From a virus, in the UHGV virus genome UHGV-0187710: a stretch of DNA of 40,954 nt. One strand, 5' to 3'. Below the pieces are notes generated by a model, which had not been told where the DNA came from, ran no database searches, and worked only from the letters and a program-made list of their open reading frames with translations. Positions 1,396-25,992 of this stretch are shown here, one piece after another (the first letter of the stretch is position 1; the number at the start of each line of letters is the position of its first letter). The translations under genes were made by a program, and so were the position numbers.

Positions 1396-2013
1396 GTGAA
1401 ACGCATAAGGATAAAGAAACCAAGATGGATTTTTGTTATTTTATTTTTTGTATTTTTAGGTATTCCATTATTTATTGATGGTATCAAGTATACTGATTAC
1501 GCTTCAGAGAATTTGCTGCCTGAATTTACTGGTGTAATACTTGAGTTTGTAATCATTCTTTATGTTATTGATTATATTCAAAAGAAAAATGAGCGTGATA
1601 ATAAAATAAAAGCAGAAAAACGTTTGCGTGAAATGTTTATTTTTTTCTTTAATAAACTGAATGACCACGTTCCTGAAAATTGCAGGATCGGATCTTTTTA
1701 CGGGCGAGAGCATGATAAAAATAAGCGTCAAATGTCATTAATGAAAGCCCATATAGAAAAACATGGGCTAGATGAAAAGGCAATAAGAGAAATTCGTATT
1801 CATTGCAAAGGTGATATTGATTTATTCAATAGTTTTATTCCAGTTGTTGCTACATTAGAAGAGCAGCATTTAAAAGCATGGACGAGAATTTCATATTACA
1901 TGAATGCAATAATTACGGAAAGAGAAACTGTACAATTTTCCGTTATAAAAATCATTGATAAAATACAGACATTTGATGATGCATCCTATAATAATAAACT
2001 GATAGTAGATTAA
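1396..2013 (+). CDS. hypothetical membrane-anchored protein, AT-rich cargo gene between icd and int
   Basis: 205-aa ORF with GTG start preceded by GAGG; hydrophobic N-terminal segment (WIFVILFFVFLGIPLF); visibly AT-rich relative to flanking genes; no recognisable motif. Confidence 0.55.
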   Translation: MKRIRIKKPRWIFVILFFVFLGIPLFIDGIKYTDYASENLLPEFTGVILEFVIILYVIDYIQKKNERDNKIKAEKRLREMFIFFFNKLNDHVPENCRIGSFYGREHDKNKRQMSLMKAHIEKHGLDEKAIREIRIHCKGDIDLFNSFIPVVATLEEQHLKAWTRISYYMNAIITERETVQFSVIKIIDKIQTFDDASYNNKLIVD

Positions 2014-3137
2014 GAGGGTATTTTTTGCCATTCTTTACCTCTGTCATCATGATATTTATCTGTTTGATGCTGGGTTTTATGACCCAGCAATTTTTGTGTA
2101 TCAATTCCCTGGTCTTTGTAAAGACGTTCAGACAATGATCTTTGCTCATGGAATGTAGCGGGTGTTCCATCTCCCCATTTAATACAAGCCTTATCCCTCG
2201 CCTTACTGAAATTCATCGTTAATGTGTTCGATTTAACTTGTGCGCCTCGTTTAGCCTGTGATGTAGCTCGGAAAAAGTGAATCAGATAGGGGCTAACTGC
2301 ATAATCTCGACAGCGCGCAACGACGTCACGTAAACTCCAGTTAATCGCATTGAGGCGAAGAGAAAGAGGTATAGCAATTTTGCTGCCGGTTTTTTCCTGT
2401 TCGATATGCAGATGATCATCCCAGATATCGCTAAATTTCATTTTGGATATGTCACCAAGACGTTGCCCAGTCACAAGGGCAAGCAGCATTGCATTTCCCA
2501 TATATTGATGTTTCTTATCTGCGATATCGAAAATCTTCAGCCACTCTTCGAGACTAAGTCGTTGTCTGGTAATCTTGCGCCTGGGCTGTTTAGTAGCAAG
2601 GGCAGGGTTGTGACCAGGCGGCACTTCACCGTAGTGTTGGGCCTCTTTGAAAACATCGATCAGTACTGAACGAACAACTTGTGCCATTCTTGGTTGACCT
2701 GCAGATAGATACTCTTCAAGAATTTGAGCAATATCCCTGACATCAACAGAAGATATGAGCTTCATTCCCGCACGTTCCTTAAGAAGTGCAACTGGCTTGG
2801 CTTTTTGTTTATACGTATTCTCCTTGATATCACCTGAAGCGAATCTTTCCTCCTGAATTTTCCAGTACCGCTCAAGCCAGGTAACAGTGGTAATTGACTT
2901 ACCCTTGCCGGTAGCAATTCGATCGCTTATAGCCAGTACCTGTCTTGAACGCTGCTCAGCAAGTCTTGCGTTTGCCTCAGTAGCAATTGCTTTAGCCTCA
3001 ACTTCATCAGTACCTAGGCTGTGAAATTTCCCCGTTACAGGATGCTTGTACCTCCAATACACTTTATTGACCTTACGACTGTATAGTGGATAGAGGTTAG
3101 GTATTGATACATTATTTTTACGTGGTCTCGCAGCCAT
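2010..3137 (-). CDS. int: tyrosine-recombinase integrase, lambda Int family
   Basis: N-terminus MAARPRKNNVSIPNLYP and C-terminus FHEQRSLSERLY...LLGHKTQHQTDKYHDDRGKEWQKI resemble lambda Int as recalled; start taken at the internal Met at 3137 (the track ORF extends to 3215); overlaps the xis 3' end as in lambda. Confidence 0.93.
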   Translation of the reverse strand: MAARPRKNNVSIPNLYPLYSRKVNKVYWRYKHPVTGKFHSLGTDEVEAKAIATEANARLAEQRSRQVLAISDRIATGKGKSITTVTWLERYWKIQEERFASGDIKENTYKQKAKPVALLKERAGMKLISSVDVRDIAQILEEYLSAGQPRMAQVVRSVLIDVFKEAQHYGEVPPGHNPALATKQPRRKITRQRLSLEEWLKIFDIADKKHQYMGNAMLLALVTGQRLGDISKMKFSDIWDDHLHIEQEKTGSKIAIPLSLRLNAINWSLRDVVARCRDYAVSPYLIHFFRATSQAKRGAQVKSNTLTMNFSKARDKACIKWGDGTPATFHEQRSLSERLYKDQGIDTQKLLGHKTQHQTDKYHDDRGKEWQKIPS

Positions 3138-3363
3138 CGCTGAGGATCCTTTGCAATTTTGGTGAATCAGATTTCTTGATAACCGGCGCAGCAAGTTCTC
3201 CAACCAATTCCGCATCCTCCCTAACTCTCCAGAGCCTACCTTGCTTCATTGCTGGTGGAGAAAAGAGATTTTGCTTAGCGTAACGGCGCAATGTCGAGAC
3301 GCTAGGTGGATTACTTCTGTATTTATCGGTTGCCCATTCTTCAAGAGTTAACATCTGAATCAT
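3118..3363 (-). CDS. xis: excisionase (Xis-like)
   Basis: 81-aa ORF directly upstream of and overlapping int; N-terminal LTLEEWA...PPAMKQGRLW resembles lambda Xis as recalled; GGAG 8 nt upstream of the ATG. Confidence 0.75.
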   Translation of the reverse strand: MIQMLTLEEWATDKYRSNPPSVSTLRRYAKQNLFSPPAMKQGRLWRVREDAELVGELAAPVIKKSDSPKLQRILSDGCETT

Positions 3364-7838: not shown

Positions 7839-8549
7839 TTACAATTTGTTGTAAGCTATTGATTCGTGTAGTAATGCTTTACCCATAATGTACAATTGAT
7901 CCTGGTTTTCTTCTGTTATGTACCAGTCTTTGTACACCGGGTTATCGGATAAAACTGCAAGTTGCAAGCCCTGCATCTGCAAGCGCTTCACATGGAAGTG
8001 CTGTCCGAATACAAACGCATAAACACCATCAACCTTGAAGTTTCTTACCGAAACATCAAAAAACAACCTGTCTCCAGACTGTATAGTTGGACACATGCTG
8101 TCGCCATCGACAGTCATCACTTTTACGTCTTCCTGAGAACGATTTCCGAAAAGTGAACGAGCGTGCTCGGTGGTGAATTCAATGGCGTGTAGAACCTCAA
8201 CAAATTCAGAGAGCATAAAACATCCAGGACCAGCACTCACAGTAAGGTCGAGAACTTCTACACGATAATTGTCGGCTTTGTGAGTGGGTACATCAACATC
8301 CATTTTTGAAGTTGGACTAAGACCATCCATCCATCCCCGGCTGATTTTCAAAGCATCCTCGATCTGCCGAGCAGCCTGCTCCCCAATATTCCGCTTATTA
8401 GGTTTACCAGCAGGGTAAAGCATCCGAGAAACAACAGTCGGATCAAGTCCTGCCTTTTCAGCAAACTCTCTTTGGGTCTTAAAGCGAGTTACTAACTCCT
8501 GAAGTTTGAGGCGTCGTAACTCGAAGATCTTAGGCGTTTCCGTTTTCAT
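7839..8549 (-). CDS. cI: CI-type prophage repressor (HTH N-terminus, LexA/S24 autocleavage C-terminus)
   Basis: N-terminal HTH-like region (FAEKAGLDPTVVSRML); Ala-Gly cleavage site (VSAGPG), Ser motif GDSM and Lys in HVKRL; divergent from a cro-like gene. Confidence 0.9.
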   Translation of the reverse strand: MKTETPKIFELRRLKLQELVTRFKTQREFAEKAGLDPTVVSRMLYPAGKPNKRNIGEQAARQIEDALKISRGWMDGLSPTSKMDVDVPTHKADNYRVEVLDLTVSAGPGCFMLSEFVEVLHAIEFTTEHARSLFGNRSQEDVKVMTVDGDSMCPTIQSGDRLFFDVSVRNFKVDGVYAFVFGQHFHVKRLQMQGLQLAVLSDNPVYKDWYITEENQDQLYIMGKALLHESIAYNKL

Positions 8550-10373: not shown

Positions 10374-11240
10374 ATGAGCCAGATATTTGAAATCGTTCAA
10401 TCGCTGTCGGGGCAAAGGAATAGCATCACCATTCCGGTCCCGTACCTCGATTATTTCTCCGGCGATCAGCAGGCGCATGCTTTGGGCGCTGTGCTAAACC
10501 AGCTCGTGTTCTGGTCTGGTAAATCAGATCTGAATGATGGCTGGTTTTATAAAGAGCACAGCGAGCTTGCGGCAGAGATTCGCGGCGTGAGTGAAGATCA
10601 GGTGCAGCGCCTGGTAAACAAGATTTGTACCCGCTGGCTACCAGGGGTTGTTGAAAAGGCGCAGCGACAGGTAAACGGCACGAAAAAGACGCATTACCGT
10701 ATCAATGGCGAAGCGCTAATCAATGTTTTATTCCCGGCAACGCTGGATTCCGCAGAATCGCGGAACGGGAAACGCGAAGTCGCGGAACCTATTCTCTATA
10801 CAGATCATTACTCAGATCACCACAAACAGATCATTAACCCCTCTTGTCCGGTTGCGCCGCAACCAGACCCTGAGGTGTTGATCACTGATAACGCCATCCT
10901 GGTTTTAACTCATTTGAACCAGGTAAGCGGCTCCCGGTACCAGAAATCTAAAACCTCTCTGGAAAACATACGTGCCCGTCTGCGTGAAGGTTATACCGTC
11001 AGCGACTTAACGCTGGTGATTGACCTCAAGCATGAACACTGGAACGGCAATGACGCGCAGTATCAGTACATGCGGCCTGAAACTCTGTTTGGGCCGAAAA
11101 AATTTGAGGGTTATCTGCAAAGCGGGCTCCGCTGGGATAAGAAAGGCCGTCCCCCTCGTGAAAGCTGGGGCGAGAAGAAACATGACCCGATGAAGTTCGG
11201 CCCGGTAGATACCAAAATTCCAGAGGGATTCAGAGGATGA
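10374..11240 (+). CDS. replication initiation protein (replisome organiser with conserved phage C-terminal domain)
   Basis: 288-aa ORF at the O-gene position; C-terminal region (LTHLNQVSGSRYQKSKTSLENIRARLREGYTVSDL...) resembles the conserved phage replication C-terminus as recalled. Confidence 0.8.
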   Translation: MSQIFEIVQSLSGQRNSITIPVPYLDYFSGDQQAHALGAVLNQLVFWSGKSDLNDGWFYKEHSELAAEIRGVSEDQVQRLVNKICTRWLPGVVEKAQRQVNGTKKTHYRINGEALINVLFPATLDSAESRNGKREVAEPILYTDHYSDHHKQIINPSCPVAPQPDPEVLITDNAILVLTHLNQVSGSRYQKSKTSLENIRARLREGYTVSDLTLVIDLKHEHWNGNDAQYQYMRPETLFGPKKFEGYLQSGLRWDKKGRPPRESWGEKKHDPMKFGPVDTKIPEGFRG

Positions 11241-14752: not shown

Positions 14753-15463
14753 GTGTATGGAGCGCAAAGAAGCATGAATCAACAAGACCTGAATTTTGTA
14801 AGAATAGAATTGCGCCGCGCGCTACCTGACCTCTCTGGGGGAACAAAAGGGCAGCTTGAGGCTTTCAGTGAACACCCACCAGCAGACAAAAATGCCACCC
14901 CGCGCCGTGGAATTCATCTCGTCGAACTCGAAGGAGAGAAGGGGCCTCGCTTTGTTAACTCGCTTTCCGCGCCATTGTATGTATTGGAAACACGCAGCCG
15001 CTGCAGGCCAATGCCGCCGATAAAAGATGCGGAATTTGAGTCCGCGCCGTGGCGTAGGGCAGTGTCCGCGCTTAGTGGATACCAGCAGGCCTGGTTGCGG
15101 TACTGCTACGGTTTTGACCTTAGCTATAAGCACCAGGTGATGATGTGTGAATACGTCTGGAAAACTTATCAGAAATGTCTGGGTGATAATTCCCTTCAGG
15201 AGCGCGTAGTAAAGAAACTGATTGGCCTGGTATGGCTGGCAGGGCAGGAAATTGCCGCAACCAGAAATAATGAAACCTATAAAGACTATGCTGGTGCAGC
15301 GTTGGCCCGCATGGTTAGCGTTGATCGTTCGACATGGTTGCGTGTCTATTCAGGGCACTGGGCTGGGTTAAAGGCCGCTTTTACCCAGCTTGATGAATCT
15401 GCGTTGGCAATGGCTCTTGAATACTATGAGGAAGAAGAAGCCCTCAAAGTGGCAGAAATGTAA
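14753..15463 (+). CDS. late-gene antiterminator, Q-like (assignment mainly positional)
   Basis: 236-aa ORF immediately upstream of a short intergenic region with a terminator and then the lysis region; family not confirmed from sequence. Confidence 0.5.
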   Translation: MYGAQRSMNQQDLNFVRIELRRALPDLSGGTKGQLEAFSEHPPADKNATPRRGIHLVELEGEKGPRFVNSLSAPLYVLETRSRCRPMPPIKDAEFESAPWRRAVSALSGYQQAWLRYCYGFDLSYKHQVMMCEYVWKTYQKCLGDNSLQERVVKKLIGLVWLAGQEIAATRNNETYKDYAGAALARMVSVDRSTWLRVYSGHWAGLKAAFTQLDESALAMALEYYEEEEALKVAEM

Positions 15464-15580: not shown

Positions 15581-15626
15581 CGTTATAATTCACCGATTTA
15601 AACCAATTGTTTTAAATAGGTGAAGT

Positions 15627-16478
15627 ATGAAAATAGATAATCCCGAAAATCCACTTGAACGAAACGATTTTTCGATGGATGACTTCCATCACTACTTAAG
15701 GGAGTTTGATAAAGCTGTATGTGAAGCGAATGCTGTAAGTCAGGGGGTTGGTGTGCGAATGGCTGAGGCTTTTAAAGGGTGGTCTACATACATTTTTTCA
15801 CGAATCTGCATTCATGCTTCAATAATGATTTCCAACGTACCAAAATCAAGATGGGCTAAGCGGGATTATGACTTTTGGGATTTTTCGGCGATTGCACCTC
15901 ATGTAAGAGCGATTCTGGAAGCTGAGTTATTGTTTATGTATTTATCTGAGAATCCAGATTCAACTGAGGAGTGGTCAGCAAAGTTGAATGTCATGCACAT
16001 GAATGATTGTGTAAAGAGAATTGAGTTATTTACATCTAGTGATAATACGAAAGCATTGGATTTTTATCATGAACAAAAAGATATAATAACTGAGAGACTT
16101 AATAACAACCCTGTTTTTTTATCCCTTGAACAAGGAACCAGAAAACGTTGCTTGACTGGAAAAGCGCTTATGATTCCAAATCGAGATGAGTTATTGGTTA
16201 AACTGGGAAAAGATCCAAAGTCATTTAAAATAATGTTCGATTTTTTATCTCATTATACGCATATACTACCTATGTCATATTATAAAATGGAGCCAAACGG
16301 AAGAGGAACTGGTTGTTTTAACAACTATGACTTTGGCTATATGATTATGGGGATGATTATTTGTACTGAATCCTTGACTAAGTGTACAGATAGATTAGTA
16401 GAACTTTTTCCTGATGTTAGACGGTTGCGAAAAGGAACTAAATCAAAATTCACGTTAGGTCCTAAACCTACAAAATAA
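15627..16478 (+). CDS. hypothetical cytoplasmic protein, AT-rich cargo gene between the Q-like gene and the lysis cassette
   Basis: 283-aa ORF, strongly AT-rich compared with neighbours, no recognisable catalytic motif; followed by a hairpin terminator. Confidence 0.65.
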   Translation: MKIDNPENPLERNDFSMDDFHHYLREFDKAVCEANAVSQGVGVRMAEAFKGWSTYIFSRICIHASIMISNVPKSRWAKRDYDFWDFSAIAPHVRAILEAELLFMYLSENPDSTEEWSAKLNVMHMNDCVKRIELFTSSDNTKALDFYHEQKDIITERLNNNPVFLSLEQGTRKRCLTGKALMIPNRDELLVKLGKDPKSFKIMFDFLSHYTHILPMSYYKMEPNGRGTGCFNNYDFGYMIMGMIICTESLTKCTDRLVELFPDVRRLRKGTKSKFTLGPKPTK

Positions 16479-16505
16479 CAATGAGTCGCTTGCTGCTATT
16501 TTAAA

Positions 16506-16530
16506 GGCTTCCAAATGGAAGTCTTTTATA
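16506..16530 (+). terminator. putative terminator after the 15627..16478 cargo gene
   Basis: stem ggcttcc / ggaagtc with a 4-nt loop followed by ttttata. Confidence 0.45.
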
Positions 16531-16696
16531 ATTTCAGGTTTCGCAAATTATACTTATCTTCACATTTTCATAATAGCGCATAAGCCAGCCCCCCCTCCAT
16601 CAACCACAGCGCCATACGAACTATCGGAGGTGAGGCTAAATTAGTAATCGTTCTTACCTGCACAGGTGCATAAAAATCAGCCTAAAATGCGAGTTT

Positions 16697-17359
16697 TTAT
16701 GAAGAGAGCAGCATGACTTTTTCTTTTGCGGGCGAAGGTGACTGCTCTTTCAAAGGGAAAATTATAAATGCTATAAATGCAGTAAATAATACTATGAAAG
16801 CTAGCACTGTAACTTTCCTTGAAGATGATAGGGCTTTGTTATATTCCTTGGCTATTTTGTTCGTTATATGGATCTTAGTGCTATTTATTTCATCTTTTAG
16901 TATGGATAATTTATTTATAAATTCCTGTGTTTCTTCTCGAGAGTAAAGTTCTGAAGCATCTCTTGGGGTTTCATGTGGATGCCGAGTATAACCAAGTATT
17001 TGTGGTATTAAATTACCATGCGATTGAACTACAGATTCATATTTCTTATAGCAAGCATTATCAAAAAATCTCATTCTTATGCTAAGTTCTCTGAGTTTGT
17101 CAACGTCTAGAGAAACTTGTTCGTTGGCAATAATTAAATCTCCGCGGTTTAATGTATTCTTGTGTTGAAAAATTAGTAAAAGCCATTCTGTATTATTGTA
17201 AAGCTTTTCAAGATTGGCATGTATATCAAGTCCGAGTTTTTCATATGCGGATAATTTGACCTCTTTTTCCTTTGCAGAAAGAGAAGATGAATAAGCCAGT
17301 AATCCGCTTATTATGGCAACAATAAATGTTCCTATAATGGTTAAGGTATTCGAGTCCAT
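16697..17359 (-). CDS. hypothetical membrane protein with hydrophobic segments at both termini, AT-rich cargo gene
   Basis: start at internal ATG 17359 (MDSNTLTIIGTFIVAIISGLLAY...); C-terminal VTVLAFIVLFTAFIAFIIFPL; helical/coiled middle; convergent with 15627..16478. Confidence 0.6.
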   Translation of the reverse strand: MDSNTLTIIGTFIVAIISGLLAYSSSLSAKEKEVKLSAYEKLGLDIHANLEKLYNNTEWLLLIFQHKNTLNRGDLIIANEQVSLDVDKLRELSIRMRFFDNACYKKYESVVQSHGNLIPQILGYTRHPHETPRDASELYSREETQEFINKLSILKDEINSTKIHITNKIAKEYNKALSSSRKVTVLAFIVLFTAFIAFIIFPLKEQSPSPAKEKVMLLSS

Positions 17360-17466
17360 TGTATTCTTCAAAAGTTGGTCAAAAATATATTGTAATATTT
17401 TAATGTATAAAATCAATCATTTCCCCTCATTCTGAGAGGACTCCCAGCAACAAAGAGGGGGGCTAA

Positions 17467-17853
17467 ATGTCCGATCCGATTTCCGGTTCTGGGATGGCTG
17501 GTGGTGTCCTGACGGGGGCCAGCGTCTATGGATTTCTGTCCGGAACCGATTACGGCGTGGTGTTTGGCGCATTTGCCGGGGCTGTATTTTACATTGCAAC
17601 CGCAGCGGATCTAAGTGCAGCGCGCCGACTGGCATATTTTCTGGTGTCGTATATTGCGGGGATCCTTTGTTCCGGGCTGGTGGGTTCAAAGCTGGCTCAG
17701 GCTACCGGCTACAGTGATAAACCACTGGATGCCATTGGCGCCGTAATCGTTTCTGCTTTAGCCGTCAAAATCCTGACATTCCTGAATAATCAGGATGTCG
17801 GCTCGCTGGTGGCGCTGATAACGCGCCGGGGAGGTTCAGGTGGTACAAAATGA
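17467..17853 (+). CDS. putative holin (multi-pass small membrane protein)
   Basis: 128-aa ORF with several hydrophobic helices and charged C-terminus, first gene of the lysis cassette. Confidence 0.6.
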   Translation: MSDPISGSGMAGGVLTGASVYGFLSGTDYGVVFGAFAGAVFYIATAADLSAARRLAYFLVSYIAGILCSGLVGSKLAQATGYSDKPLDAIGAVIVSALAVKILTFLNNQDVGSLVALITRRGGSGGTK

Positions 17854-18121
17854 CCCATCGGCAACTTTTAATGCATTGCTTTGTGCTGGGGTAGTGTTAA
17901 CCCTGATGTTTTACCGTCGCGGCGACTCGCGACATCGACCGTGGATATCTCGCTTAGCGTGGCTGCTTACGGTCATCTACAGCGCCGTTCCGCTGGCGTA
18001 TCTGTGCGGTATTTACCCGTACTCATCATGGGCCACTATCGGGGCCAACTTTATTTTCCTGTCCGTGCTGGTCGCCGTAAGAGGCAACGTGGCACGTCTG
18101 GTTGATCATCTGAGGCACTAA
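17840..18121 (+). CDS. second small lysis-cassette membrane protein (holin/antiholin-like)
   Basis: 93-aa hydrophobic ORF overlapping the previous gene end and ending at the endolysin start. Confidence 0.5.
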   Translation: MVQNDPSATFNALLCAGVVLTLMFYRRGDSRHRPWISRLAWLLTVIYSAVPLAYLCGIYPYSSWATIGANFIFLSVLVAVRGNVARLVDHLRH

Positions 18122-18735
18122 TGAACCAATCACAATTTCAGCAGGCGGCTGGTATCAGCGCCGGGCTTTCTGCGCGCTGGTTTCCGCACATTGACGCGGC
18201 AATGAAAGAGTTTGGCATTACAGCTACGAACGATCTGGCTATGTTCATCGCCCAGGTTGGGCATGAGTCTGCTGGCTTTACCTCGCTGGTGGAAAGCTTC
18301 AACTACTCGGTAGAGGGGCTGAAGAAAACCTTTGGTAAACGGCTTACTCCTTATCAGTGTGAAATGCTGGGTCGTGTCGATGGTAAGCAGGTGGCCCACC
18401 AGCCGCAAATAGCCAATCTGGTTTATGGTGACCGCATGGGGAATAACAGCCAGGGTGACGGCTGGAAATATCGCGGTCGCGGCCTGCTGCAAATCACGGG
18501 TCGTGAGAACTACACCAAATGCGGCACGGCGCTGAAACTTGACCTTATCAGTACGCCAGAATTGCTAACGCAAGAGCGACATGCGGCTCGTTCGGCTGCG
18601 TGGTACTTCACGTTACGCGGTTGCCTGATGTATTCGGGTGACGTGGCACGCGTTACGCAGATTATTAACGGCGGACAGAACGGCATTAAAGACCGCCGTG
18701 AACGTTACGCCAAAGCTAAAGCTGCACTGGTGTGA
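18121..18735 (+). CDS. endolysin, glycoside hydrolase family 19 (chitinase-like lysozyme)
   Basis: FIAQVGHESAGF ... YGDRMGNNSQGDGWKYRGRGLLQITGRENY motifs typical of GH19 phage lysozymes. Confidence 0.9.
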   Translation: MNQSQFQQAAGISAGLSARWFPHIDAAMKEFGITATNDLAMFIAQVGHESAGFTSLVESFNYSVEGLKKTFGKRLTPYQCEMLGRVDGKQVAHQPQIANLVYGDRMGNNSQGDGWKYRGRGLLQITGRENYTKCGTALKLDLISTPELLTQERHAARSAAWYFTLRGCLMYSGDVARVTQIINGGQNGIKDRRERYAKAKAALV

Positions 18736-18742
18736 GGTCAGT

Positions 18743-19012
18743 ATGGGGCTTGAAATGATTATCGGCCTGGTTGTTGCTGTGCTGGCTGCAATTGCAGGTG
18801 CTTTTGGGCTGGGCAAATCACGCGGTACCAGTATCGCTGAAACAAAAGCGGACCAACAACGCACTGAAGAACGTGCAATAGCTATTGAAGCGGTTGCAGA
18901 ACGCCGGGTAGAAACAACAAAAGGAGCCAGGGATGTACAACAGACTGTTAACCATATGCCTGATGACGCTGCTGATCGCGAGCTGCGCAAAAACTGGACA
19001 CGTAAGGATTGA
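18743..19012 (+). CDS. i-spanin (Rz-like)
   Basis: N-terminal transmembrane helix (MIIGLVVAVLAAIAGAFGL) then a charged helical periplasmic region; GAGG 5 nt upstream of the ATG; directly after the endolysin. Confidence 0.7.
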   Translation: MGLEMIIGLVVAVLAAIAGAFGLGKSRGTSIAETKADQQRTEERAIAIEAVAERRVETTKGARDVQQTVNHMPDDAADRELRKNWTRKD

Positions 19013-19154
19013 GGTTATTGACACCGGCTGCGATTGGGTAAAACCCATCTACGGCACTGCTCATGATTGGGAAGTGCTGGACAGGCAGACCAAGAAAGAC
19101 ATTCTTATGCATAACAAAGTGTGGATGTCAAACTGTGGCTCTATAACTTATTGA
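18933..19154 (+). CDS. o-spanin (Rz1-like lipoprotein), overlapping the i-spanin 3' end in another frame
   Basis: signal peptide with lipobox LIASC; overlapped spanin architecture. Confidence 0.65.
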   Translation: MYNRLLTICLMTLLIASCAKTGHVRIEVIDTGCDWVKPIYGTAHDWEVLDRQTKKDILMHNKVWMSNCGSITY

Positions 19155-19805
19155 TTTTGTTTTTTTGTTGTCTACCATATCAGGCAATGTGAAGGCATAT
19201 AGAAGAAATACTTCGGTGAAACCAATCATTTCTTGAGCATCTTCTTTTGAAAATTCTTCATCAGAATGAACTGCTCCATTGGAATCGATTCGAACTATAT
19301 GTGCCCATTCCCTCATTTGATCTGTAATCAGTCCCTTAGCATGCAACATAGAAATCCGTTTAACCAATTTTTCATCTTTTGAGTCATTTCCCAGTAACTC
19401 CCGTGTAGCAATGTCCAAGACTTTACGGCAAAGCATAACGGATGTGTCGAAACGACAGCGCCCTAAGTTGTCTTTTGCTTCTATGAAAGCCATAGCAGCA
19501 CGTGGCGGAGTGTGTTCGGGGGCGTTAAGGAGGGTGGGTTTCGGGATGATATCAATCAACTGGTACTCAGTATTTCCAGGAATGATTACGTTTACATCAT
19601 TATTTTGCCTAGATTTTGCACGAGGTAAATAACCACCGGGATTATTCATTTTTACAATAGCAATACCTGATTGAAAACAGCTTCGACAACAAAATGCAAT
19701 ATTAACTAAAGGCCCGGCGTTGATACGCAGTTCTGCCCATCCTTCAAGGACAGCATTTTCCCTCAGACAATGTGGGCAAGTGATATCGAAAGTGAGAATT
19801 CGCAT
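19128..19805 (-). CDS. zinc-ribbon protein with DUF4145-like (HEPN-superfamily-like) C-terminal domain; candidate abortive-infection/defence cargo
   Basis: start at internal ATG 19805; N-terminal CPHC ... CCRSC; C-terminal FIEAKDNLGRCRFDTSVMLCRKVLDIATRELL ... HIVRIDSNGAVHSDEEFSKEDAQE pattern recalled as DUF4145; opposite strand to the lysis genes. Confidence 0.7.
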   Translation of the reverse strand: MRILTFDITCPHCLRENAVLEGWAELRINAGPLVNIAFCCRSCFQSGIAIVKMNNPGGYLPRAKSRQNNDVNVIIPGNTEYQLIDIIPKPTLLNAPEHTPPRAAMAFIEAKDNLGRCRFDTSVMLCRKVLDIATRELLGNDSKDEKLVKRISMLHAKGLITDQMREWAHIVRIDSNGAVHSDEEFSKEDAQEMIGFTEVFLLYAFTLPDMVDNKKTKSISYRATV

Positions 19806-20550
19806 GACTCTACTCCATACATTAAAAGAAATTGAAAATGAATTACACAATGCACAACGACCTGAGTCTACACTCCTTCAACGATATGAAGTATCGAATG
19901 AGATTAAAAAAAAGGAGTTTGTAGTCGCTTTGATCGGTAAACTGATAGAATTGGACCGCCGTCTCTATGTCACATCATTGAAGCCTTAGTTTCAATTTTA
20001 CCGATTTATCGCTTAAGGGGTAGGACTTCAACACTACTAAGTGAGCATTGCAGCAGGCATTCAGGGGAATGCTGTGACAGTAGTTAGCTAGGGTAAACCG
20101 TTTGCGCCTGGGGATTTTACTTTGCGACGGAAAATTAAAAAACTATATGATTTCTTATCCCACTAGGATGTCTGCGGACTACTACTGACTGTTTAGGCTA
20201 TTACGAGGGGCTCAAACTCAACGTCTGGCATCAACGCAGAACTGAAAAAGTCGCCATGAATGTGGTTACGGTATTTGGTGGGATATAAACGTACCTTCAT
20301 TTCTAAGCTTGATAATCACCTTTGTCCGAATTGCCTACGCGATAGTCATGTAGTTTTAGTCATAACCGTTTACCCTATTGATGTCAAGATAAATTGGATA
20401 ACACTGATGAATCGAACCTCTAAATCCTTTGATGGGCCACTCATAGCTGACTGGTTCAAAAAAGTGTTATCAATGGTATGATAAGTTGAGATGAAAGGTG
20501 TAAATGAACTATAATAATTCAACAGTTAATCTGAGAAAAATGGATTATGT

Positions 20551-20820
20551 ATGTCGAATGTAAAAAAAATAGATGCTATAGTTCAAAATTTATTTGAATT
20601 CAGAGATGCTACAGGTGAACTTACGGATAAAAATATTGTTTTAATACAAAAAATCATAACGAACTTACCTGACTATGCTGGTAAGGATCCATATGAATTT
20701 TATTCATCATTTTCTGAAGATATTAATGAGTCGCTCAAAGCAATTGCCAATTATCATAAGGCACATGCTAAATACATTAATGCCCTCGATAAATTAGCAG
20801 AGCTTAGGTCGGAGGGGTAA
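20551..20820 (+). CDS. hypothetical small soluble protein, gene 1 of an AT-rich two-gene cassette
   Basis: 89-aa ORF, very AT-rich, predicted all-helical; 2-nt gap to the next gene. Confidence 0.55.
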   Translation: MSNVKKIDAIVQNLFEFRDATGELTDKNIVLIQKIITNLPDYAGKDPYEFYSSFSEDINESLKAIANYHKAHAKYINALDKLAELRSEG

Positions 20821-20822
20821 TA

Positions 20823-21200
20823 ATGGCTACGGAAGATATTCAGGCTTTGTTATCTAAAGTTAATGCGTTAAGATTTGAAGATAAAAGAATAGAGAAGGAA
20901 ACAGGAGAGATTGAAAATGAAATTCAGGCTCAATTTCTTCGTGATGGTAAAACAAGGAGTACATTAACCATAACATTTATGAGAGGCTTTTTTGGTCTTA
21001 TCGTTTTTTCTTTTATATTTGTGATAGCTTATAACTATTGCGCAGTGCAATGGGTACTTCAATTACAAAGCAAAGGGCTCATGGAGGCTTCTAAAAGTAT
21101 CGCACTACTTGAGTTAGATAAGGTGTTATCTATTATGGTTAGTGCGTTAGGAACATCTCTTGGGTTTATAATTGGCTATTATTTTAAAGACAAAAAATAA
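20823..21200 (+). CDS. hypothetical small membrane protein, gene 2 of the AT-rich cassette
   Basis: 125-aa ORF: charged helical N-terminus then two hydrophobic segments (FFGLIVFSFIFVIAY and VLSIMVSALGTSLGFIIGYYF); followed by a strong terminator. Confidence 0.6.
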   Translation: MATEDIQALLSKVNALRFEDKRIEKETGEIENEIQAQFLRDGKTRSTLTITFMRGFFGLIVFSFIFVIAYNYCAVQWVLQLQSKGLMEASKSIALLELDKVLSIMVSALGTSLGFIIGYYFKDKK

Positions 21201-21273
21201 ATAATTTAATTTTACATTGCTATTTATGTTTTGCTTTTAAGATTTTTAACTTTCTAGATGTAGAGTTATTGTT

Positions 21274-21305
21274 AAAGCACTGGTATTTGCCAGTGCTTTT
21301 TTATT
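21274..21305 (+). terminator. rho-independent terminator after the AT-rich two-gene cassette
   Basis: 10-bp stem aaagcactgg / ccagtgcttt with loop tatttg followed by ttttatt. Confidence 0.65.
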
Positions 21306-21611: not shown

Positions 21612-21700
21612 CCTAAGTTCTCTTTATAAATGAGAAGTTCCCGCTAGCGACCGTTTCTGATTCTTTTTTTCTACTAAGTTTGTATCAAATAAACAGGATA

Positions 21701-22069
21701 ATGCCGATGCCAGCACGAGCAAAGCGTCCATGCCGGCACAAGGGCTGTGCGGCAGTTACCAACGATGCCAGTGGCTATTGTGATCAACACCGACAGCGGC
21801 ATGCTGGTGATGGCTGGCGTAACTATCAGGCAGGAAAGAGCAGGCAGGAACGTGGATATGGGCGGACCTGGGAAATTAAACGGGTGCGTATCCTTCAGCG
21901 TGATAAGTACCTGTGTCAGAACCATCGCCGGCAGAAGATTGCAAAAAAGGCGACCAGCGTTGACCACATCATTCCAAAAGCTCATGGCGGTACTGATGAC
22001 GATTTCAATCTTGAGTCGTTGTGCTGGGACTGCCACAGAGCGAAGACGGCAAGAGAGCGTATCCGATGA
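21701..22069 (+). CDS. HNH endonuclease (packaging-associated)
   Basis: Cys/His-rich ORF with CQNHRRQKIAKKATSVDHIIPKAHGGTDDDFNLESLCWDCHRAKT; directly upstream of terminase genes. Confidence 0.85.
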   Translation: MPMPARAKRPCRHKGCAAVTNDASGYCDQHRQRHAGDGWRNYQAGKSRQERGYGRTWEIKRVRILQRDKYLCQNHRRQKIAKKATSVDHIIPKAHGGTDDDFNLESLCWDCHRAKTARERIR

Positions 22070-22404: not shown

Positions 22405-22839
22405 ATGGCTGGTGGAATTCGATCATCAGGCGGAGGGCGAAAGCCCGTTTTACCTTCAGGACAAAAAAGCAAACTGACCAGAATCGCACCTCCCGCTGAG
22501 TTAATGGGGGAGAATGCAATAAGACTGTGGAAAACCCAAAGTAAAATTCTGATCGAAAGAGGCGTGTTTGAACTGGAGGATGCGCCCCTGCTTCTGGCTT
22601 ACTGCAATGCCTTCCATTTAATGCTTGAAGCTGAAAAATTGCTCTCGTCAAGCCTGACGACCGAAAGTGAAATGGGGGGATTAAAGAAACATCCCGCCGT
22701 TAACATCAGAAATGATTCTGTTTCCCAGATAGCCCGTCTTGGCTCGCTTCTGGGGTTGGATCCACTCAGCCGAATTAGGATGCGTGGCAGTGGAAATGAT
22801 CCGGACGACGACGGGAATGAATTTGATGAGTTTGACTGA
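22405..22839 (+). CDS. terminase small subunit (P27-type)
   Basis: 144-aa ORF with basic N-terminus and central LLLAYCNAFHLMLEAEK motif; acidic tail; ATGA-coupled to the large subunit. Confidence 0.85.
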   Translation: MAGGIRSSGGGRKPVLPSGQKSKLTRIAPPAELMGENAIRLWKTQSKILIERGVFELEDAPLLLAYCNAFHLMLEAEKLLSSSLTTESEMGGLKKHPAVNIRNDSVSQIARLGSLLGLDPLSRIRMRGSGNDPDDDGNEFDEFD

Positions 22840-24560
22840 TGGCTACATATCCGAACGTCAATGCAGCGAACCAGTATGCAAGAGATGTTGTTGGCGGGAA
22901 GATCCTTGCTTGTCAGTTAACTGTGCTTGCCTGTCAAAGACACCTTGATGATTTGGAACGTGCGAAGGATCCTGCCTGGCCTTACCGGTTTGATAAAAAC
23001 AAGGCCGAGCGATTTTTGCGCTTTGCTCAGAAGATGCCTCATACGGCCGGTGAATGGGCCAGGAAGAAACTACGAATAGAATTTGAGCCCTGGCAAAAGT
23101 TTGCCCTTGGTGTGCCATTTGGATGGGTTAATAAGAAGTCCGGATTCCGGCGTTTTTCTGAAATATATATTGAGGTGCCCAGGAAAAATGGGAAATCCGC
23201 AATTGCAGCTGCCGTTGGTAATTATATGTTTTGCGCCGATGGTGAACATGGTGCAGAAGTGTACTGTGGCGCCACTACTGAAAAACAAGCCTGGAAAGTC
23301 TTCTCTCCCGCTCTACAAATGGTAAAAAAACTCCCGGCATTGCGACAAAAATACTCAGTCAAACCCTGGGCGAAGAAAATGACCCGTCCGGATGGCTCTG
23401 TTTTTGCGCCAGTCATCGGCGATCCTGGTGACGGCGATTCCCCTTCATGTGCAATTATTGATGAATATCACGAGCATCAGACTGATGCACTTTATACAAC
23501 GATGACTACCGGGATGGGGGCAAGGGAGCAGCCTGTTACTCTGATTATTACTACAGCGGGTTATGACATTACTTCGCCCTGTTACGAGAAGCGTGTGCAG
23601 ATAGTGGAAATTCTCCGCCGTAACCGGACAGGAGAAGAAAACGAGACAATATTTGGCATTATATACGGTCTGGATGACGATGATGACTGGACCAGGCCCG
23701 AAGCGCTGATTAAAGCAAATCCCAACTTTGGTGTTTCTGTTAAAGAGCATTTTCTTCGGGCGAAGCAGTTACTGGGAATATCCAATCCCAGCCAGACTAA
23801 CAAAATTCTGACCAAGCACTTTAACCGGTGGGTAAGTGCAAAAACGGTTTTTTATGACCTGCAAAGATGGATGGCTGCTGCGGATAAAAACCTTAAATTA
23901 TCTGATTTTGTTGATGAGGATTGCTGGCTGGGTATTGATCTGGCCTCGAAAGTAGACCTGAATGCCGTAGTGCCAGTGTTCAGGAGAGAGGTTGCTGGTA
24001 TAACCCATTTTTACTGTGTGGGGCCGCTGTTCTGGGCGCCTGAAGATACAATTTATTCACCAGATCCCACGCTGAAAACCATTTCTGAACGTTACCAGTC
24101 ATTTGTGAAACAGGGGGTATTGATACCTACTGAAGGGGCTGAGGTGGATTATCGGTTAATTTTTGAGTCAATTCTTCAGTTACGCCAGCAGGTTAAAATT
24201 GTCCAGTGCCCGATAGATCCTTACGGGGCAACATCATTGCGCCATCTGCTTGAAGAGGAGGGGCTGGAATCCGTTGAGATCAGGCAAAATTTTACACATA
24301 TGAGTGATCCAATGCGTGAAATTGAGGCGGCGCTGGCATCAGGACGCTTTCATCATGACGGTAACCCTATCATGAACTGGTGCATCCAGAATGTTATAGG
24401 GCGTTACTTACCAGGAAGCGATGACATTGTTCGCCCAGGGAAGGAGAGAAAGCAAAACAAAATAGATGGCGCGGTAGGACTAATGATGGGAGTCGGGCGA
24501 GCCATGCTGAACGGAACTGTCAGTAAATCGGCTTATGATGAGGAAGATATTACATGTTGA
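22839..24560 (+). CDS. terminase large subunit
   Basis: 573-aa ORF following the small subunit, with ATPase-like N-terminal region and nuclease-like C-terminal region. Confidence 0.95.
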   Translation: MATYPNVNAANQYARDVVGGKILACQLTVLACQRHLDDLERAKDPAWPYRFDKNKAERFLRFAQKMPHTAGEWARKKLRIEFEPWQKFALGVPFGWVNKKSGFRRFSEIYIEVPRKNGKSAIAAAVGNYMFCADGEHGAEVYCGATTEKQAWKVFSPALQMVKKLPALRQKYSVKPWAKKMTRPDGSVFAPVIGDPGDGDSPSCAIIDEYHEHQTDALYTTMTTGMGAREQPVTLIITTAGYDITSPCYEKRVQIVEILRRNRTGEENETIFGIIYGLDDDDDWTRPEALIKANPNFGVSVKEHFLRAKQLLGISNPSQTNKILTKHFNRWVSAKTVFYDLQRWMAAADKNLKLSDFVDEDCWLGIDLASKVDLNAVVPVFRREVAGITHFYCVGPLFWAPEDTIYSPDPTLKTISERYQSFVKQGVLIPTEGAEVDYRLIFESILQLRQQVKIVQCPIDPYGATSLRHLLEEEGLESVEIRQNFTHMSDPMREIEAALASGRFHHDGNPIMNWCIQNVIGRYLPGSDDIVRPGKERKQNKIDGAVGLMMGVGRAMLNGTVSKSAYDEEDITC

Positions 24561-24733
24561 TCACTCTTTTAAGTTTTATTATCGGCCTCGCCGGAGCCGG
24601 GTTAGTGTCTGCCGGTGCCTGGCTTATTTCACCTGCAGCCGGGCTTATTACTGGCGGTTCAATCTGCCTGCTGTGGTCATTTTTAATCGCGAAATCGATG
24701 TCCGCCAGCGTAATTAAATCAGGGGGTGAATAA
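24554..24733 (+). CDS. small hydrophobic protein (59 aa) between the large terminase and portal genes
   Basis: ORF MLITLLSFIIGLAGAGLVSAGAWLISPAAGLITGGSICLLWSFLIAKSMSASVIKSGGE; start overlaps the terL stop and its stop overlaps the portal start (TAATG). Confidence 0.4.
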   Translation: MLITLLSFIIGLAGAGLVSAGAWLISPAAGLITGGSICLLWSFLIAKSMSASVIKSGGE

Positions 24734-25992
24734 TGTTCATTCCCCAGATGTTTCGGGGTAAATCTCAGTCTGGTGGTGGTTTCTGGCAGGCGATGCTGGG
24801 TGGGGTGAGTTCCAGCCAGAGCAAGGCGGGGATCATTATCACTCCTGAAACCGCACTGGCGTTATCGGCGGTCCGGGCATGCGTAACGCTTCTGGCAGAA
24901 TCGGTGGCGCAGTTGCCGTGTGAACTTTACAGGCGAGGCGCTAACGGAGGCCGTGAACGGGCGACTGACCACCCTGTTTATGATCTGATTCATTCCCAGC
25001 CCAACAAAAAAGACACCTCGTTTGAATACTTTGAGCAGCAACAGGGCCTGCTCGGGCTGGAGGGAAATTGCTACTCGATCATCGACAGGGACGGGAAAGG
25101 GTATCCCCGCGAATTAATCCCGGTTAATCCCAAAAAAGTCATCGTCCTGAAAGGGCCTGACGGGATGCCCTATTATGAACTCCCCGAAATTGGCGAAACG
25201 TTGCCAATGCGCATGATGCATCATGTGAAGGTTTTCTCGCTGGATGGTTATATCGGTAGCTCTCCGATCCAGACGAACGCAGACGTTCTTGGGCTGAACC
25301 TGGCCGTTGAAGAGCATGCTTCTCAGGTTTTTCGCCGTGGCACAACGATGAGCGGCGTTATTGAGCGACCAAAGGAGGCTCCGACAATAAAGAACCAGGA
25401 GAAGATTGACCAACTTCTTGCTAAATGGACGGATCGTTATTCCGGTATGCGTAATGCCTTTTCTGTCGCATTGCTTCAGGAAGGGATGAGCTACAAACAG
25501 CTATCTCAGGATAATGAGAAAGCGCAGCTGTTGCAGTCCCGCCAGTGGGGCGTGGAGGAAGTTTGCCGACTCTATAAAATCCCGCCTCATATGGTGCAGA
25601 TGCTGGCGAAAGCCACAAATAACAACATTGAGCATCAGGGGCTGCAGTTCGTCATGTATACGCTTTTAGCCTGGCTGAAACGCCATGAAGGCGCATTAAT
25701 GCGCGATCTGCTTTTACCCAGCGAGCGCGGTAGTCTGTACATTGAATTCAATGTATCCGGCCTGCTGCGCGGGGATCAGAAGTCACGCTATGAATCTTAT
25801 GCGCTGGGCCGTCAGTGGGGCTGGTTATCGGTTAATGACATTCGCCGCATGGAGAACCTTCCTCCCATCGCCGGTGGGGACAAATACCTGACGCCTCTGA
25901 ATATGGTCGACAGTAAACAAATCTTACCTGGCAATAACGCGCCAACAGCTAAACAACTGGCAGAAATCGAAACTATTCTGGCCAGAGCCTGA
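24733..25992 (+). CDS. portal protein (HK97 family)
   Basis: 419-aa ORF at the canonical position after terminase; sequence character of HK97-type portals. Confidence 0.93.
   Translation: MFIPQMFRGKSQSGGGFWQAMLGGVSSSQSKAGIIITPETALALSAVRACVTLLAESVAQLPCELYRRGANGGRERATDHPVYDLIHSQPNKKDTSFEYFEQQQGLLGLEGNCYSIIDRDGKGYPRELIPVNPKKVIVLKGPDGMPYYELPEIGETLPMRMMHHVKVFSLDGYIGSSPIQTNADVLGLNLAVEEHASQVFRRGTTMSGVIERPKEAPTIKNQEKIDQLLAKWTDRYSGMRNAFSVALLQEGMSYKQLSQDNEKAQLLQSRQWGVEEVCRLYKIPPHMVQMLAKATNNNIEHQGLQFVMYTLLAWLKRHEGALMRDLLLPSERGSLYIEFNVSGLLRGDQKSRYESYALGRQWGWLSVNDIRRMENLPPIAGGDKYLTPLNMVDSKQILPGNNAPTAKQLAEIETILARA

What the first reader, a model, noticed from the sequence alone, without database searches (positions are those of the whole stretch)
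19128..19805. Zinc-ribbon plus DUF4145/HEPN-like gene on the opposite strand between the spanins and cos (lambda bor-equivalent slot)
A 225-aa minus-strand gene sits between the lysis cassette and the packaging site, where lambdoid phages typically carry non-essential cargo. It has N-terminal CxxC and CCxxC clusters and a C-terminal region that I recall as DUF4145, a predicted HEPN-type domain often tied to abortive infection and RNA cleavage. Its strand and position argue that it is not part of the lysis or packaging operons. Its start ATG shares a CATG with a divergent 61-codon ORF (19804..19989), which may be an artefact of the palindrome.
Basis: partly seen in the sequence, partly recalled or inferred. 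Interest (0 to 1): 0.62.

Follow-up and report, generated by a model that had tools for sequence, protein, structure and literature searches.

The report
Prophage zinc-ribbon RNase with hidden partner
A prophage carries, backwards inside its own late operon, a gene for a zinc-ribbon plus HEPN RNase that resembles the known anti-phage suicide enzyme RAZR, and its start codon overlaps that of a small, previously unnoticed but widely conserved partner gene that may let the prophage control this weapon during its own growth.

The parts
19128..19805 (-). Gene for the zinc-ribbon plus DUF4145/HEPN protein (225 aa here; 218 aa in relatives)
19641..19805 (-). N-terminal Cys4 zinc-ribbon domain (residues 1-55; C10, C13, C40, C43)
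   Evidence: The four Cys are invariant in 97 homologues. The AF2 model has three long beta-strands, E20-27, E33-40 and E46-53. Profile matches to RPB9/RPA12/TFIIS zinc ribbons are weak, E 0.05-0.3. They are in register with the RAZR zinc-finger domain in the 9y9c alignment.
19161..19505 (-). C-terminal DUF4145/HEPN helical domain (residues about 101-215)
19266..19292 (-). Predicted catalytic segment R172-I-D-S-N176-G-A-V-H180 (R-x7-H)
   Evidence: R172 and H180 are invariant and N176 nearly so. The segment aligns with RAZR R146-IVGN-QAV-H154. Alanine substitution of those RAZR residues abolishes defence (PMC13017515).
19160..19166 (.). T7 homopolymer (A7 on the coding strand); the 1-nt insertion replaces the C-terminal KKQNQ* with KKTKSISYRATV*
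   Evidence: Alignment with L001, L003 and L004. L016 is 99.965% identical over 11.5 kb but has A6 and a 218-aa product.
19804..19989 (+). Conserved small partner gene (61 aa, predicted three-helix protein, PHROG 8371)
   Evidence: Present with the same overlapping start in about 60 of 95 loci, over DUF4145 identities from 100% down to 47%. I10, R19, P20, E21, L24 and I48 are invariant. The coding signature is clear: synonymous fraction 0.33 in frame against 0.07 out of frame, with an excess of third-position differences. There are 59 database homologues, all called hypothetical. AF2 pLDDT is 86.4.
19803..19806 (.). CATG in which the two divergent start codons overlap by 2 nt
   Evidence: Seen in the sequence. 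Conserved in all loci that have the partner. Independent gene calls show the same overlap in Alcaligenes, Yersinia, Stx phage 75/02 and phage PhiR12_3.
19813..19816 (-). GGAG Shine-Dalgarno of the RNase gene, lying inside codons 4-5 of the partner ORF
   Evidence: Read from the sequence.
19990..20063 (.). Right-hand end of the DNA block shared with related phages (18750-20063); a possible site for the RNase promoter, none identified
   Evidence: blastn against L001-L005; alignment A3; promoter scans inconclusive.

Best explanation
The gene encodes a RAZR-like abortive-infection RNase carried as prophage cargo. SHOWN: it has a Cys4 zinc ribbon, a linker and a DUF4145/HEPN domain with an invariant R-x3-N-x3-H site. 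It is a low-GC insert lying antisense inside the Q-dependent late operon of a lambdoid prophage. Its homologues sit antisense in phage operons in two different slots. Its start codon overlaps that of a conserved 61-aa three-helix protein gene, which runs with the phage operon and is often translationally coupled to the next phage gene. INFERRED by analogy with RAZR/PD-T7-4: in the lysogen the RNase is made from its own promoter (not located) and stays inactive. On superinfection its variable zinc-ribbon domain recognises a phage protein assembly. The HEPN domains are then positioned into active composite sites, RNA is cleaved, translation stops and the infection is aborted. INFERRED from the geometry: when the carrier prophage itself is induced, read-through transcription from pR' (or from pR in the early-slot variants) runs antisense across the RNase gene and sense across the partner ORF. 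RNase expression should then fall while the small protein is made. The most likely role of the small protein is to restrain or re-tune the RNase during the carrier phage's own lytic growth, as self-immunity or regulation. The frameshifted C-terminal tail probably does not matter.
For: Domain and active site. Relation to RAZR: the PADLOC PD-T7-4 model gives E=1.6e-3 for this protein, matches 14 of 24 close homologues (best 1.3e-5) and 50 of 103 distant ones (best 1.8e-11). A family profile finds the solved RAZR chain 9y9c_OA at E=3e-7, with the zinc-finger and HEPN parts in register. BLASTP against RAZR-Ec gives 29% identity and E=3e-4, with the RxxxNxxxH segment aligned. hhalign gives 77.6% probability and E=1.9e-5. 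RAZR biology comes from PMC13017515. Prophage cargo: integrase, CI, O, Q, lysis, HNH/TerS/TerL and portal map. GC is 0.41-0.43 here against 0.53 in the lysis genes. A 97%-identical gene sits in the same slot in phages with a different (lambda Nu1/A) packaging module. The other slot lies between P/DnaB and ninB. 80% of flanking ORFs are on the opposite strand. Partner gene. Its stop overlaps or abuts the next co-directional phage ORF in 24 of 47 distinct loci. A precedent for a prophage HEPN Abi that must avoid self-targeting is HepS of Gifsy-1 (PMC13043305). A zinc-finger plus HEPN E. coli protein distinct from PD-T7-4 (DS-38) has been validated as a defence system.
Against: No phenotype, RNA cleavage, trigger or transcript was measured. 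Sequence similarity to RAZR is weak and rests on the HEPN half. The zinc ribbon is followed by an insertion of about 25-30 residues that RAZR lacks, so the trigger may be quite different. No convincing sigma-70 promoter was found for either gene. The partner is absent from whole clades (Klebsiella type, 45-48% identity; L022; L023-25 and L066). It is truncated or has lost its start in the closest relatives (L001-5, L017, L018), although the RNase gene there is intact. It is therefore not essential. Its integrity does not track the portal type of the carrier phage. Its fold gives no functional clue. The window copy carries a G2R change and a frameshifted tail, so this particular copy could be impaired.
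Confidence: 0.6

Rival explanations
1. The two genes form a classical toxin-antitoxin pair: the HEPN protein is a constitutively toxic RNase and the small protein is its obligatory antitoxin.
Against: The genes are divergent and cannot be co-transcribed. The partner is truncated or absent in many loci where the RNase gene is intact and keeps its catalytic residues. No MNT-type neighbour is present. Overexpressed RAZR alone is not toxic (PMC13434031).
Confidence: 0.08
2. The small protein is a transcriptional regulator or an obligatory co-factor or sensor of a two-gene defence system, rather than a self-immunity factor.
For: Divergent small regulators are common. The partner occurs almost only next to this RNase subfamily. 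It is helical with a long C-terminal helix and basic tails.
Against: No HTH or other DNA-binding family matched. Loss of the partner with retention of the RNase argues against an obligatory co-factor. Translational coupling to downstream phage genes in 24 of 47 loci places it in the lytic operon, not in a lysogen-expressed unit. One orphan copy exists without any RNase gene.
Confidence: 0.2
3. The protein is a nucleic-acid-binding regulator of the phage (the PHROG label is 'DNA binding protein') with no role in defence, and the HEPN domain is non-catalytic.
For: PHROG 1305 is annotated as a DNA binding protein and RefSeq copies carry that name. Zinc ribbons often bind nucleic acids, and many HEPN domains are non-enzymatic.
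Against: R172, N176 and H180 are invariant or nearly so across 97 homologues and about 90% conserved in 103 distant ones, which is the mark of an active HEPN site. The gene is accessory, low in GC, antisense to phage operons and found in two unrelated slots, as expected of cargo and not of a core regulator. The PHROG label has no experimental basis that I could find.
Confidence: 0.07
4. This particular copy is a decaying pseudogene: the homopolymer frameshift and the G2R change have inactivated it.
For: T7 against T6 alters the last residues. Gly2 is otherwise conserved in the partner-bearing clades.
Against: The frameshift falls after the last conserved column (M210/V211), in a tail that varies across the family. 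The ORF remains open, all invariant residues are retained, and the partner ORF is intact here. The extra T may be a metagenome assembly error.
Confidence: 0.1

Closest known systems
RAZR (PD-T7-4), ring-activated zinc-finger RNase of E. coli (Zhang et al., Nature 2026, PMC13017515; PDB 9Y9C)
   Same: Both have about 210-220 aa, an N-terminal CPHC...CxxC zinc ribbon, a Pro-rich linker and a C-terminal DUF4145/HEPN domain. Both have the unusual R-x7-H spacing with Asn at +4: RIVGNQAVH in RAZR and RIDSNGAVH here. Pfam and PADLOC link the two.
   Different: Identity is only 29% over the HEPN half (E=3e-4), and the zinc ribbons are not significantly alike. An extra segment of about 25-30 residues (helix 61-66 and hairpin 73-87) lies between the ribbon and the linker. 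RAZR is described as a single gene. Here a conserved partner gene with an overlapping start is usual. The trigger and oligomeric state are unknown.
DS-38 of the DefensePredictor screen (bioRxiv 10.1101/2025.01.08.631726)
   Same: DS-38 is an experimentally validated E. coli defence protein with HEPN and zinc-finger domains, and only its HEPN domain aligns with PD-T7-4. That is the relation found here. E. coli and ECOR prophages carry 50%-identical homologues of the window protein.
   Different: Identity with this family could not be tested because the DS-38 sequence is not held. No partner gene is mentioned in that paper.
HepS of the Salmonella prophage Gifsy-1 (Sargen et al., Nature 2026, PMC13043305)
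   Same: It is a single HEPN-domain abortive-infection RNase encoded by a lambdoid prophage and activated by a structural protein of the incoming phage. The prophage has to avoid triggering it.
Lambda bor and the moron concept (own knowledge: Barondess and Beckwith 1990; Juhala et al. 2000)
   Same: The gene occupies the same position, downstream of Rz/Rz1 on the opposite strand. It is a non-essential, low-GC insert that varies among related phages.
   Different: bor encodes a lipoprotein and is unrelated in sequence and function. No moron promoter or terminator was identified for the RNase gene.
P22 sieB/esc with the sas antisense RNA, and 'excludon'-type divergent overlapping transcripts (own knowledge; not checked in the paper library)
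   Same: These are prophage abortive-infection functions whose self-killing is prevented by a linked product and by antisense transcription, or divergent genes whose transcripts must overlap at their 5' ends.
   Different: There is no sequence relation. Here the two products are separate ORFs on opposite strands that share CATG. Transcript overlap is deduced from the geometry and was not observed.
HEPN-MNT type II toxin-antitoxin modules
   Different: There is no MNT neighbour, the genes are not in an operon, and the partner is dispensable.

Membership tests
Pfam DUF4145 (PF13643; HEPN clan) | Score above the curated gathering threshold | tested here: met
   42.4 bits against a cutoff of 23.1, E=7.4e-11, residues 120-198. 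Some homologues also hit PF05168 HEPN.
HEPN superfamily | Alpha-helical HEPN core fold | tested here: met
HEPN superfamily | Conserved R-x(4-6)-H catalytic motif | tested here: met
   R172 and H180 are invariant. The spacing is x7, not x4-6, the same departure as in RAZR R146/H154.
RAZR / PD-T7-4 | N-terminal Cys4 zinc-ribbon domain | tested here: met
   C10, C13, C40 and C43 are invariant. The model has a beta-ribbon. RPB9/TFIIS-type matches are weak, the same comparison as in the RAZR paper. Zinc binding was not tested.
RAZR / PD-T7-4 | Recognition by the family's sequence model (PADLOC PDLC04109) over the full length | tested here: not met
   E=1.6e-3, 15.9 bits, covering only residues 102-218. 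The best score among 127 relatives is 1.8e-11. hhalign gives 77.6% over the HEPN domain only. This is a sister family, not a called member.
RAZR / PD-T7-4 | Single-gene system | tested here: inconclusive
   A conserved partner ORF overlaps the start in most loci, but it is missing or decayed in others where the RNase is intact.
RAZR / PD-T7-4 | Higher-order oligomerisation and activation by phage ring proteins of about 170 A (portal, Gp77) | not testable with these tools
   Requires multimer modelling or biochemistry. The carrier prophage encodes its own portal at 24733-25992.
RAZR / PD-T7-4 | Abortive-infection phenotype with non-specific ssRNA cleavage | not testable with these tools
   Experimental only.
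DS-38 (DefensePredictor) | Sequence identity or homology to the validated protein | not testable with these tools
   No accession or sequence is held.
HEPN-MNT toxin-antitoxin | Adjacent co-transcribed MNT nucleotidyltransferase antitoxin | tested here: not met
   No MNT domain appears among the neighbours in the window or in 10 annotated related loci.
Prophage moron (lysogenic-conversion cargo) | Accessory insert with deviant composition, present in different phages and slots independently of the flanking modules | tested here: met
   GC 0.41-0.43 against 0.53. The same gene occurs with lambda-type or HK97-type packaging modules. Late and early slots are both used.
Prophage moron (lysogenic-conversion cargo) | Own promoter and terminator | tested here: inconclusive
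   No consensus promoter lies upstream on the minus strand. The 3' end overlaps the Rz1 stop, with no terminator.

The most novel reading that the evidence does not exclude
The RNase and the 61-aa protein form a two-gene switch cassette. The lysogen makes the RNase. Any lytic read-through of the carrier phage silences the RNase gene by antisense transcription. The same read-through translates a dedicated three-helix inhibitor that keeps the RNase from firing on the carrier's own ring-shaped or structural proteins. This would be a genetically hard-wired self-immunity device for a prophage-borne abortive-infection enzyme. The rare orphan copies of the small gene (Salmonella locus L099) would then be phage anti-defence genes aimed at this RNase family.
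Probability: 0.28. Interest if true: 0.78.

Novelty: new variant of a known kind. Interest (0 to 1): 0.58.

Why it matters
Prophage-encoded abortive-infection enzymes raise a current question: how does the carrier phage avoid killing its own lytic cycle? For HepS the answer was a non-triggering structural variant. Here the geometry suggests a different answer that can be tested directly. The RNase gene always lies antisense in a phage operon, and its start codon overlaps that of a small conserved gene that belongs to that operon. The family is widespread in Enterobacterales prophages, including Stx phages (48 of 5426 complete E. coli genomes). Current defence finders would not call it as PD-T7-4 (the PADLOC model scores only E=1.6e-3), and it is sometimes labelled 'DNA binding protein'. 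Gene callers frequently miss its partner. If the partner is an inhibitor, it would be the first antagonist of a RAZR-type RNase. It would also affect how such genes should be cloned, because 'native promoter' fragments would carry the partner along.

Tried and rejected
1. DNA searches of window 18900-20300 found nothing in the phage collection and only a 94-nt spanin match in E. coli. Context had to come from protein-based searches.

2. Foldseek of the whole model against the PDB gave no significant hit and did not return RAZR. The first PDB sequence search, with the close-homologue profile, missed 9y9c. Only the wider profile found it.

3. The RAZR-Ec sequence had to be pieced together from P0307, the 9y9c alignment and P0285. 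It was checked against the residue numbers in the paper.

4. No credible, positionally conserved sigma-70 site turned up in the promoter scans of the window and about 80 loci. A recurrent weak site at -75 is explained by the RYE codons of the partner.

6. I tested whether partner integrity follows the carrier's portal or terminase type, as a simple self-immunity model predicts. It does not. Lambda-type carriers include intact (L021) and truncated (L001-5) partners, and HK97-type carriers include intact (window) and truncated (L018) partners.

7. Rfam and tRNA scans of the region were empty.

8. The DS-38 sequence could not be obtained.

9. I considered a mirror-tree co-evolution test of the partner against the zinc ribbon and dropped it, because physical linkage would confound it.

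10. The TTG-extended 240-aa form (19850) was rejected. The extension is not conserved, it overlaps the partner ORF, and the ATG has a GGAG Shine-Dalgarno.

Full report
OBSERVATION. The ATG is at 19805 and the stop at 19128-19130, giving 225 aa. A GGAG lies 7 nt upstream. The CPHC and CCRSC clusters and the RIDSNGAVH segment are present. The ORF list also shows a TTG-started 240-aa version. I reject that version because the extension is not conserved and the family N-terminus M-G-I-L-T-F-D aligns from the ATG. The plus-strand 61-codon ORF at 19804..19989 shares CATG (19803-19806) with it.

There is one correction. The T-run at 19160-19166 has seven T in the window and in the identical IMG/VR contig L015. 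It has six T in L001, L003 and L004 and in L016, a prophage 99.965% identical over 11.5 kb. The extra base changes the usual C-terminus KKQNQ* (218 aa, stop at 19148-19150, overlapping the Rz1 stop by 7 nt) into KKTKSISYRATV*. This lies beyond the last conserved column and in a tail that varies across the family. I regard it as neutral or as an assembly error (inference).

WHAT THE PROTEIN IS. Pfam places residues 120-198 in DUF4145 (E=7.4e-11, 42.4 bits, cutoff 23.1). DUF4145 has been recognised as a HEPN family since Anantharaman et al. 2013, who also listed zinc-ribbon fusions (PMC3710099). PHROG 1305 matches end to end (E=8e-43) but carries the uninformative label 'DNA binding protein'.

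There are 146 close homologues of 212-223 aa in Enterobacterales, all named 'DUF4145 domain-containing protein'. An exhaustive profile search finds 2725 cluster representatives at E<=1e-3, and 145 at E<=1e-30. Most have the same length and full-length coverage. In 97 aligned homologues, C10, C13, C40, C43, R172 and H180 are invariant and N176 nearly so. All of these are still about 90% conserved in 103 distant representatives.

The AlphaFold2 model (pLDDT 85.8) has three parts:
- a beta-ribbon (E20-27, E33-40, E46-53);
- a short helix and hairpin (61-87);
- a helical domain (101-223).

RELATION TO RAZR. The only PADLOC model touched is PD-T7-4 (E=1.6e-3). It also matches 14 of 24 close relatives and 50 of 103 distant ones, with a best score of 1.8e-11. 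PD-T7-4 has been renamed RAZR. It is an N-terminal Cys4 zinc-finger domain plus a DUF4145 HEPN RNase with catalytic R146 and H154. It polymerises around phage portal or Gp77 rings and then cleaves RNA non-specifically, aborting infection. Its zinc-finger domain sets specificity and is the most variable region (PMC13017515).

A profile of distant members of the window family finds the solved RAZR chain 9y9c_OA (E=3e-7), with both halves in register. I rebuilt the RAZR-Ec sequence from database fragments. It reproduces the residue numbers given in the paper. BLASTP against the window protein gives 29% identity over 135 residues (E=3e-4) and aligns RIVGNQAVH with RIDSNGAVH. Profile-profile comparison gives 77.6% probability (E=1.9e-5), over the HEPN domain only.

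The window protein therefore has the RAZR architecture and active-site signature, including the unusual R-x7-H spacing. It belongs to a distinct sister family with about 25-30 extra residues after the ribbon. A validated E. coli defence protein, DS-38, is described in exactly these terms: zinc finger plus HEPN, with only the HEPN domain aligning to PD-T7-4. I could not obtain its sequence, so its identity with this family is only a lead.

CONTEXT. The window is a lambdoid prophage with this gene order:
- integrase 2010-3215 (-);
- CI-like repressor 7839-8549 (-);
- O-like replication protein 10374-11240;
- Q 14753-15463;
- two holins, an endolysin and the spanins, 17467-19154;
- HNH 21680-22069, TerS 22405-22839, TerL 22839-24560;
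- portal 24733-25992.

GC falls from 0.53 in the lysis genes to 0.41-0.43 over the cassette and to 0.32 in the next insert. The gene is convergent with Rz1 and antisense to everything around it.

The 97%-identical gene P0001 occupies the same slot in phages whose packaging module is of the lambda Nu1/A type instead of the HK97 type. Klebsiella phage 2b LV-2017 has an unannotated 47% homologue there too. Many other homologues sit between the replication genes (P or DnaB) and ninB, again antisense. Examples are Stx phages 75/02 and POCJ13, and Serratia, Providencia and Yersinia prophages. Across 89 distinct loci, 547 of 687 flanking ORFs (80%) are on the opposite strand, by a crude ORF-based count. 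In E. coli the cassette is present in 48 of 5426 complete genomes.

THE PARTNER GENE. In Stx phage 75/02 the homologue (50% identity) is again preceded by a divergent small gene whose ATG overlaps its ATG. That product aligns without gaps to the window's 61-aa product. I then examined 95 loci.
- About 60 loci have an ORF of 55-93 codons starting in the same CATG, over RNase identities from 100% down to 47%. They share the motif DRPEFTL(M/L)QRYE...QK..FV.ALIGKLIEQDR.
- Independent gene calls show the same 2-nt overlap in Alcaligenes (Betaproteobacteria), Yersinia and the ECOR13 phage PhiR12_3.
- Among 36 distinct sequences, differences concentrate at third codon positions (21356, against 14396 at first and 11798 at second positions).
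- The synonymous fraction is 0.33 in frame and 0.07 in the shifted frames, and every other frame is full of stops.

This is a protein-coding gene under purifying selection, not a by-product of the palindrome.

Its 59 database homologues are all 'hypothetical'. It matches PHROG 8371, of unknown function, and nothing in Pfam, PDB sequences or PADLOC. It is predicted to be a three-helix protein (pLDDT 86.4) with only generic structural neighbours.

It runs with the phage operon. In 24 of 47 distinct loci its stop overlaps or abuts the start of the next phage gene, often ninB, which is the hallmark of translational coupling.

It is not universal. It is absent from the Klebsiella-type clade and a few others. 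It is truncated or has lost its start in the window's closest relatives (L001-5, L017, L018), although their RNase genes are intact. One orphan copy without any RNase gene exists in a Salmonella prophage.

MECHANISM. Shown: the domain architecture, the conserved catalytic and zinc ligands, cargo status, constant antisense placement, and a conserved partner gene with an overlapping start that belongs to the phage operon.

Inferred from RAZR and from general knowledge of HEPN Abi proteins: the RNase is made in the lysogen and is inactive until its zinc-ribbon domain binds a protein assembly of an infecting phage. The HEPN domains then form active sites, RNA is degraded and the infection aborts. 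I put about 0.8 on 'anti-phage HEPN RNase' and about 0.35 on 'the trigger is a portal-like ring'.

Inferred from the geometry and from established lambdoid transcription (Q-antiterminated pR' and N-antiterminated pR read through everything downstream): on induction of the carrier phage, RNA polymerase crosses the RNase gene antisense and the partner ORF sense. Each ribosome-binding site lies inside the other gene, so the two mRNAs must be complementary around both start sites. RNase expression should then fall while the partner is produced. I therefore propose that the partner restrains or re-tunes the RNase during the carrier's own lytic growth (probability about 0.3).

The dispensability of the partner, and the lack of correlation with the carrier's portal type, weaken the simplest form of this idea. 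No promoter could be assigned.

RIVALS. A classical toxin-antitoxin pair is unlikely. The genes are divergent, the partner is dispensable and there is no MNT neighbour. A regulator or co-factor role for the partner remains open. A non-defensive 'DNA-binding protein' is unlikely, given the invariant catalytic residues and the cargo behaviour. Inactivation of this copy by the frameshift is possible but unlikely.

NOVELTY. The RNase itself is a new variant of a known kind: a RAZR-like zinc-ribbon/HEPN Abi protein that may already have been validated as DS-38. In the literature I could search, nothing describes the constant antisense embedding in phage operons. Nor does anything describe the conserved partner gene with an overlapping start. 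These features make the self-targeting problem of prophage Abi systems, addressed for HepS in PMC13043305, directly testable in a second system that may work differently.

Noticed in passing
window 19160-19166: The homopolymer is T7 here and in the identical contig L015, but T6 in all relatives, including the 99.965%-identical prophage L016. It frameshifts the last codons of the RNase gene (218 aa becomes 225 aa) and may be a metagenome assembly error.
   Followed up: yes
window 20486-21299: A separate moron of very low GC (0.32). It has a near-consensus promoter (TTGAGA-18-TATAAT, 20486-20515), two plus-strand genes (20551-20820, 89 aa, PHROG 21707; 20823-21200, 125 aa, hydrophobic, PHROG 20796) and a strong terminator hairpin at 21274-21299. 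Function is unknown and PADLOC gives no hit.
   Followed up: partly
window 15600-17420: A second low-GC island (0.33-0.37) lies between Q and the holins, the slot where Stx phages carry toxin genes. 15627-16478 (+, 283 aa) has a sub-threshold DUF5677 match (E=2.3e-4). 16697-17416 (-, 239 aa) matches nothing in Pfam, PHROGs or PADLOC.
   Followed up: partly
L099 3001-3213 (Salmonella enterica prophage, GCA_024689885.1): An orphan homologue of the small partner protein (P0444, 70 aa) has no DUF4145 gene or remnant nearby. It lies downstream of a SocA_Panacea-domain gene, between Q and the holin. It could be a stand-alone anti-defence gene.
   Followed up: partly
L001-L005, L017, L018 (closest relatives of the window cassette): The partner ORF is decaying while the RNase gene stays intact. 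There is a 9-nt deletion plus an early stop (45 aa) in L001-3 and L005, ATG changed to ATA in L004, and products of 32 and 39 aa in L017 and L018.
   Followed up: yes
proteins P0270-P0389 (RAZR-type homologues): Most database entries closest to RAZR-Ec residues 63-157 are 146-166 aa long and start at the Met equivalent to M63, so they lack the zinc-finger domain. They may be mis-called starts or genuine ribbon-less variants. This was not resolved.
   Followed up: no
L006 5141-5702 (Shigella Stx phage 75/02) and L103 2017-2700: In Stx-type phages the cassette sits beside a RelE/ParE toxin plus regulator pair on the RNase strand, forming a small cargo cluster in the nin region next to a Ren-like exclusion gene.
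   Followed up: no
L007 5001-5639 (Klebsiella phage 2b LV-2017, KY271395.1); L102 2501-3082 (Burkholderia phage phi644-2): In deposited phage genomes the homologous RNase gene is unannotated (Klebsiella) or annotated only as a 3' fragment (phi644-2 gp55).
   Followed up: no
window 19800-19802 (codon 2 of the RNase gene): The window, L015 and L016 have Arg at position 2 (CGA), where nearly all partner-bearing relatives have Gly. The change also alters the base at position -2 of the partner's start codon.
   Followed up: no
L016 (IMGVR_UViG_2663762810_000004): In this near-identical prophage, the sequence matching window 14295 is joined directly to that matching window 4827, in the same relative orientation. 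About 9.5 kb of the early region, including repressor and replication genes, is missing relative to the window, so that copy is probably defective.
   Followed up: no
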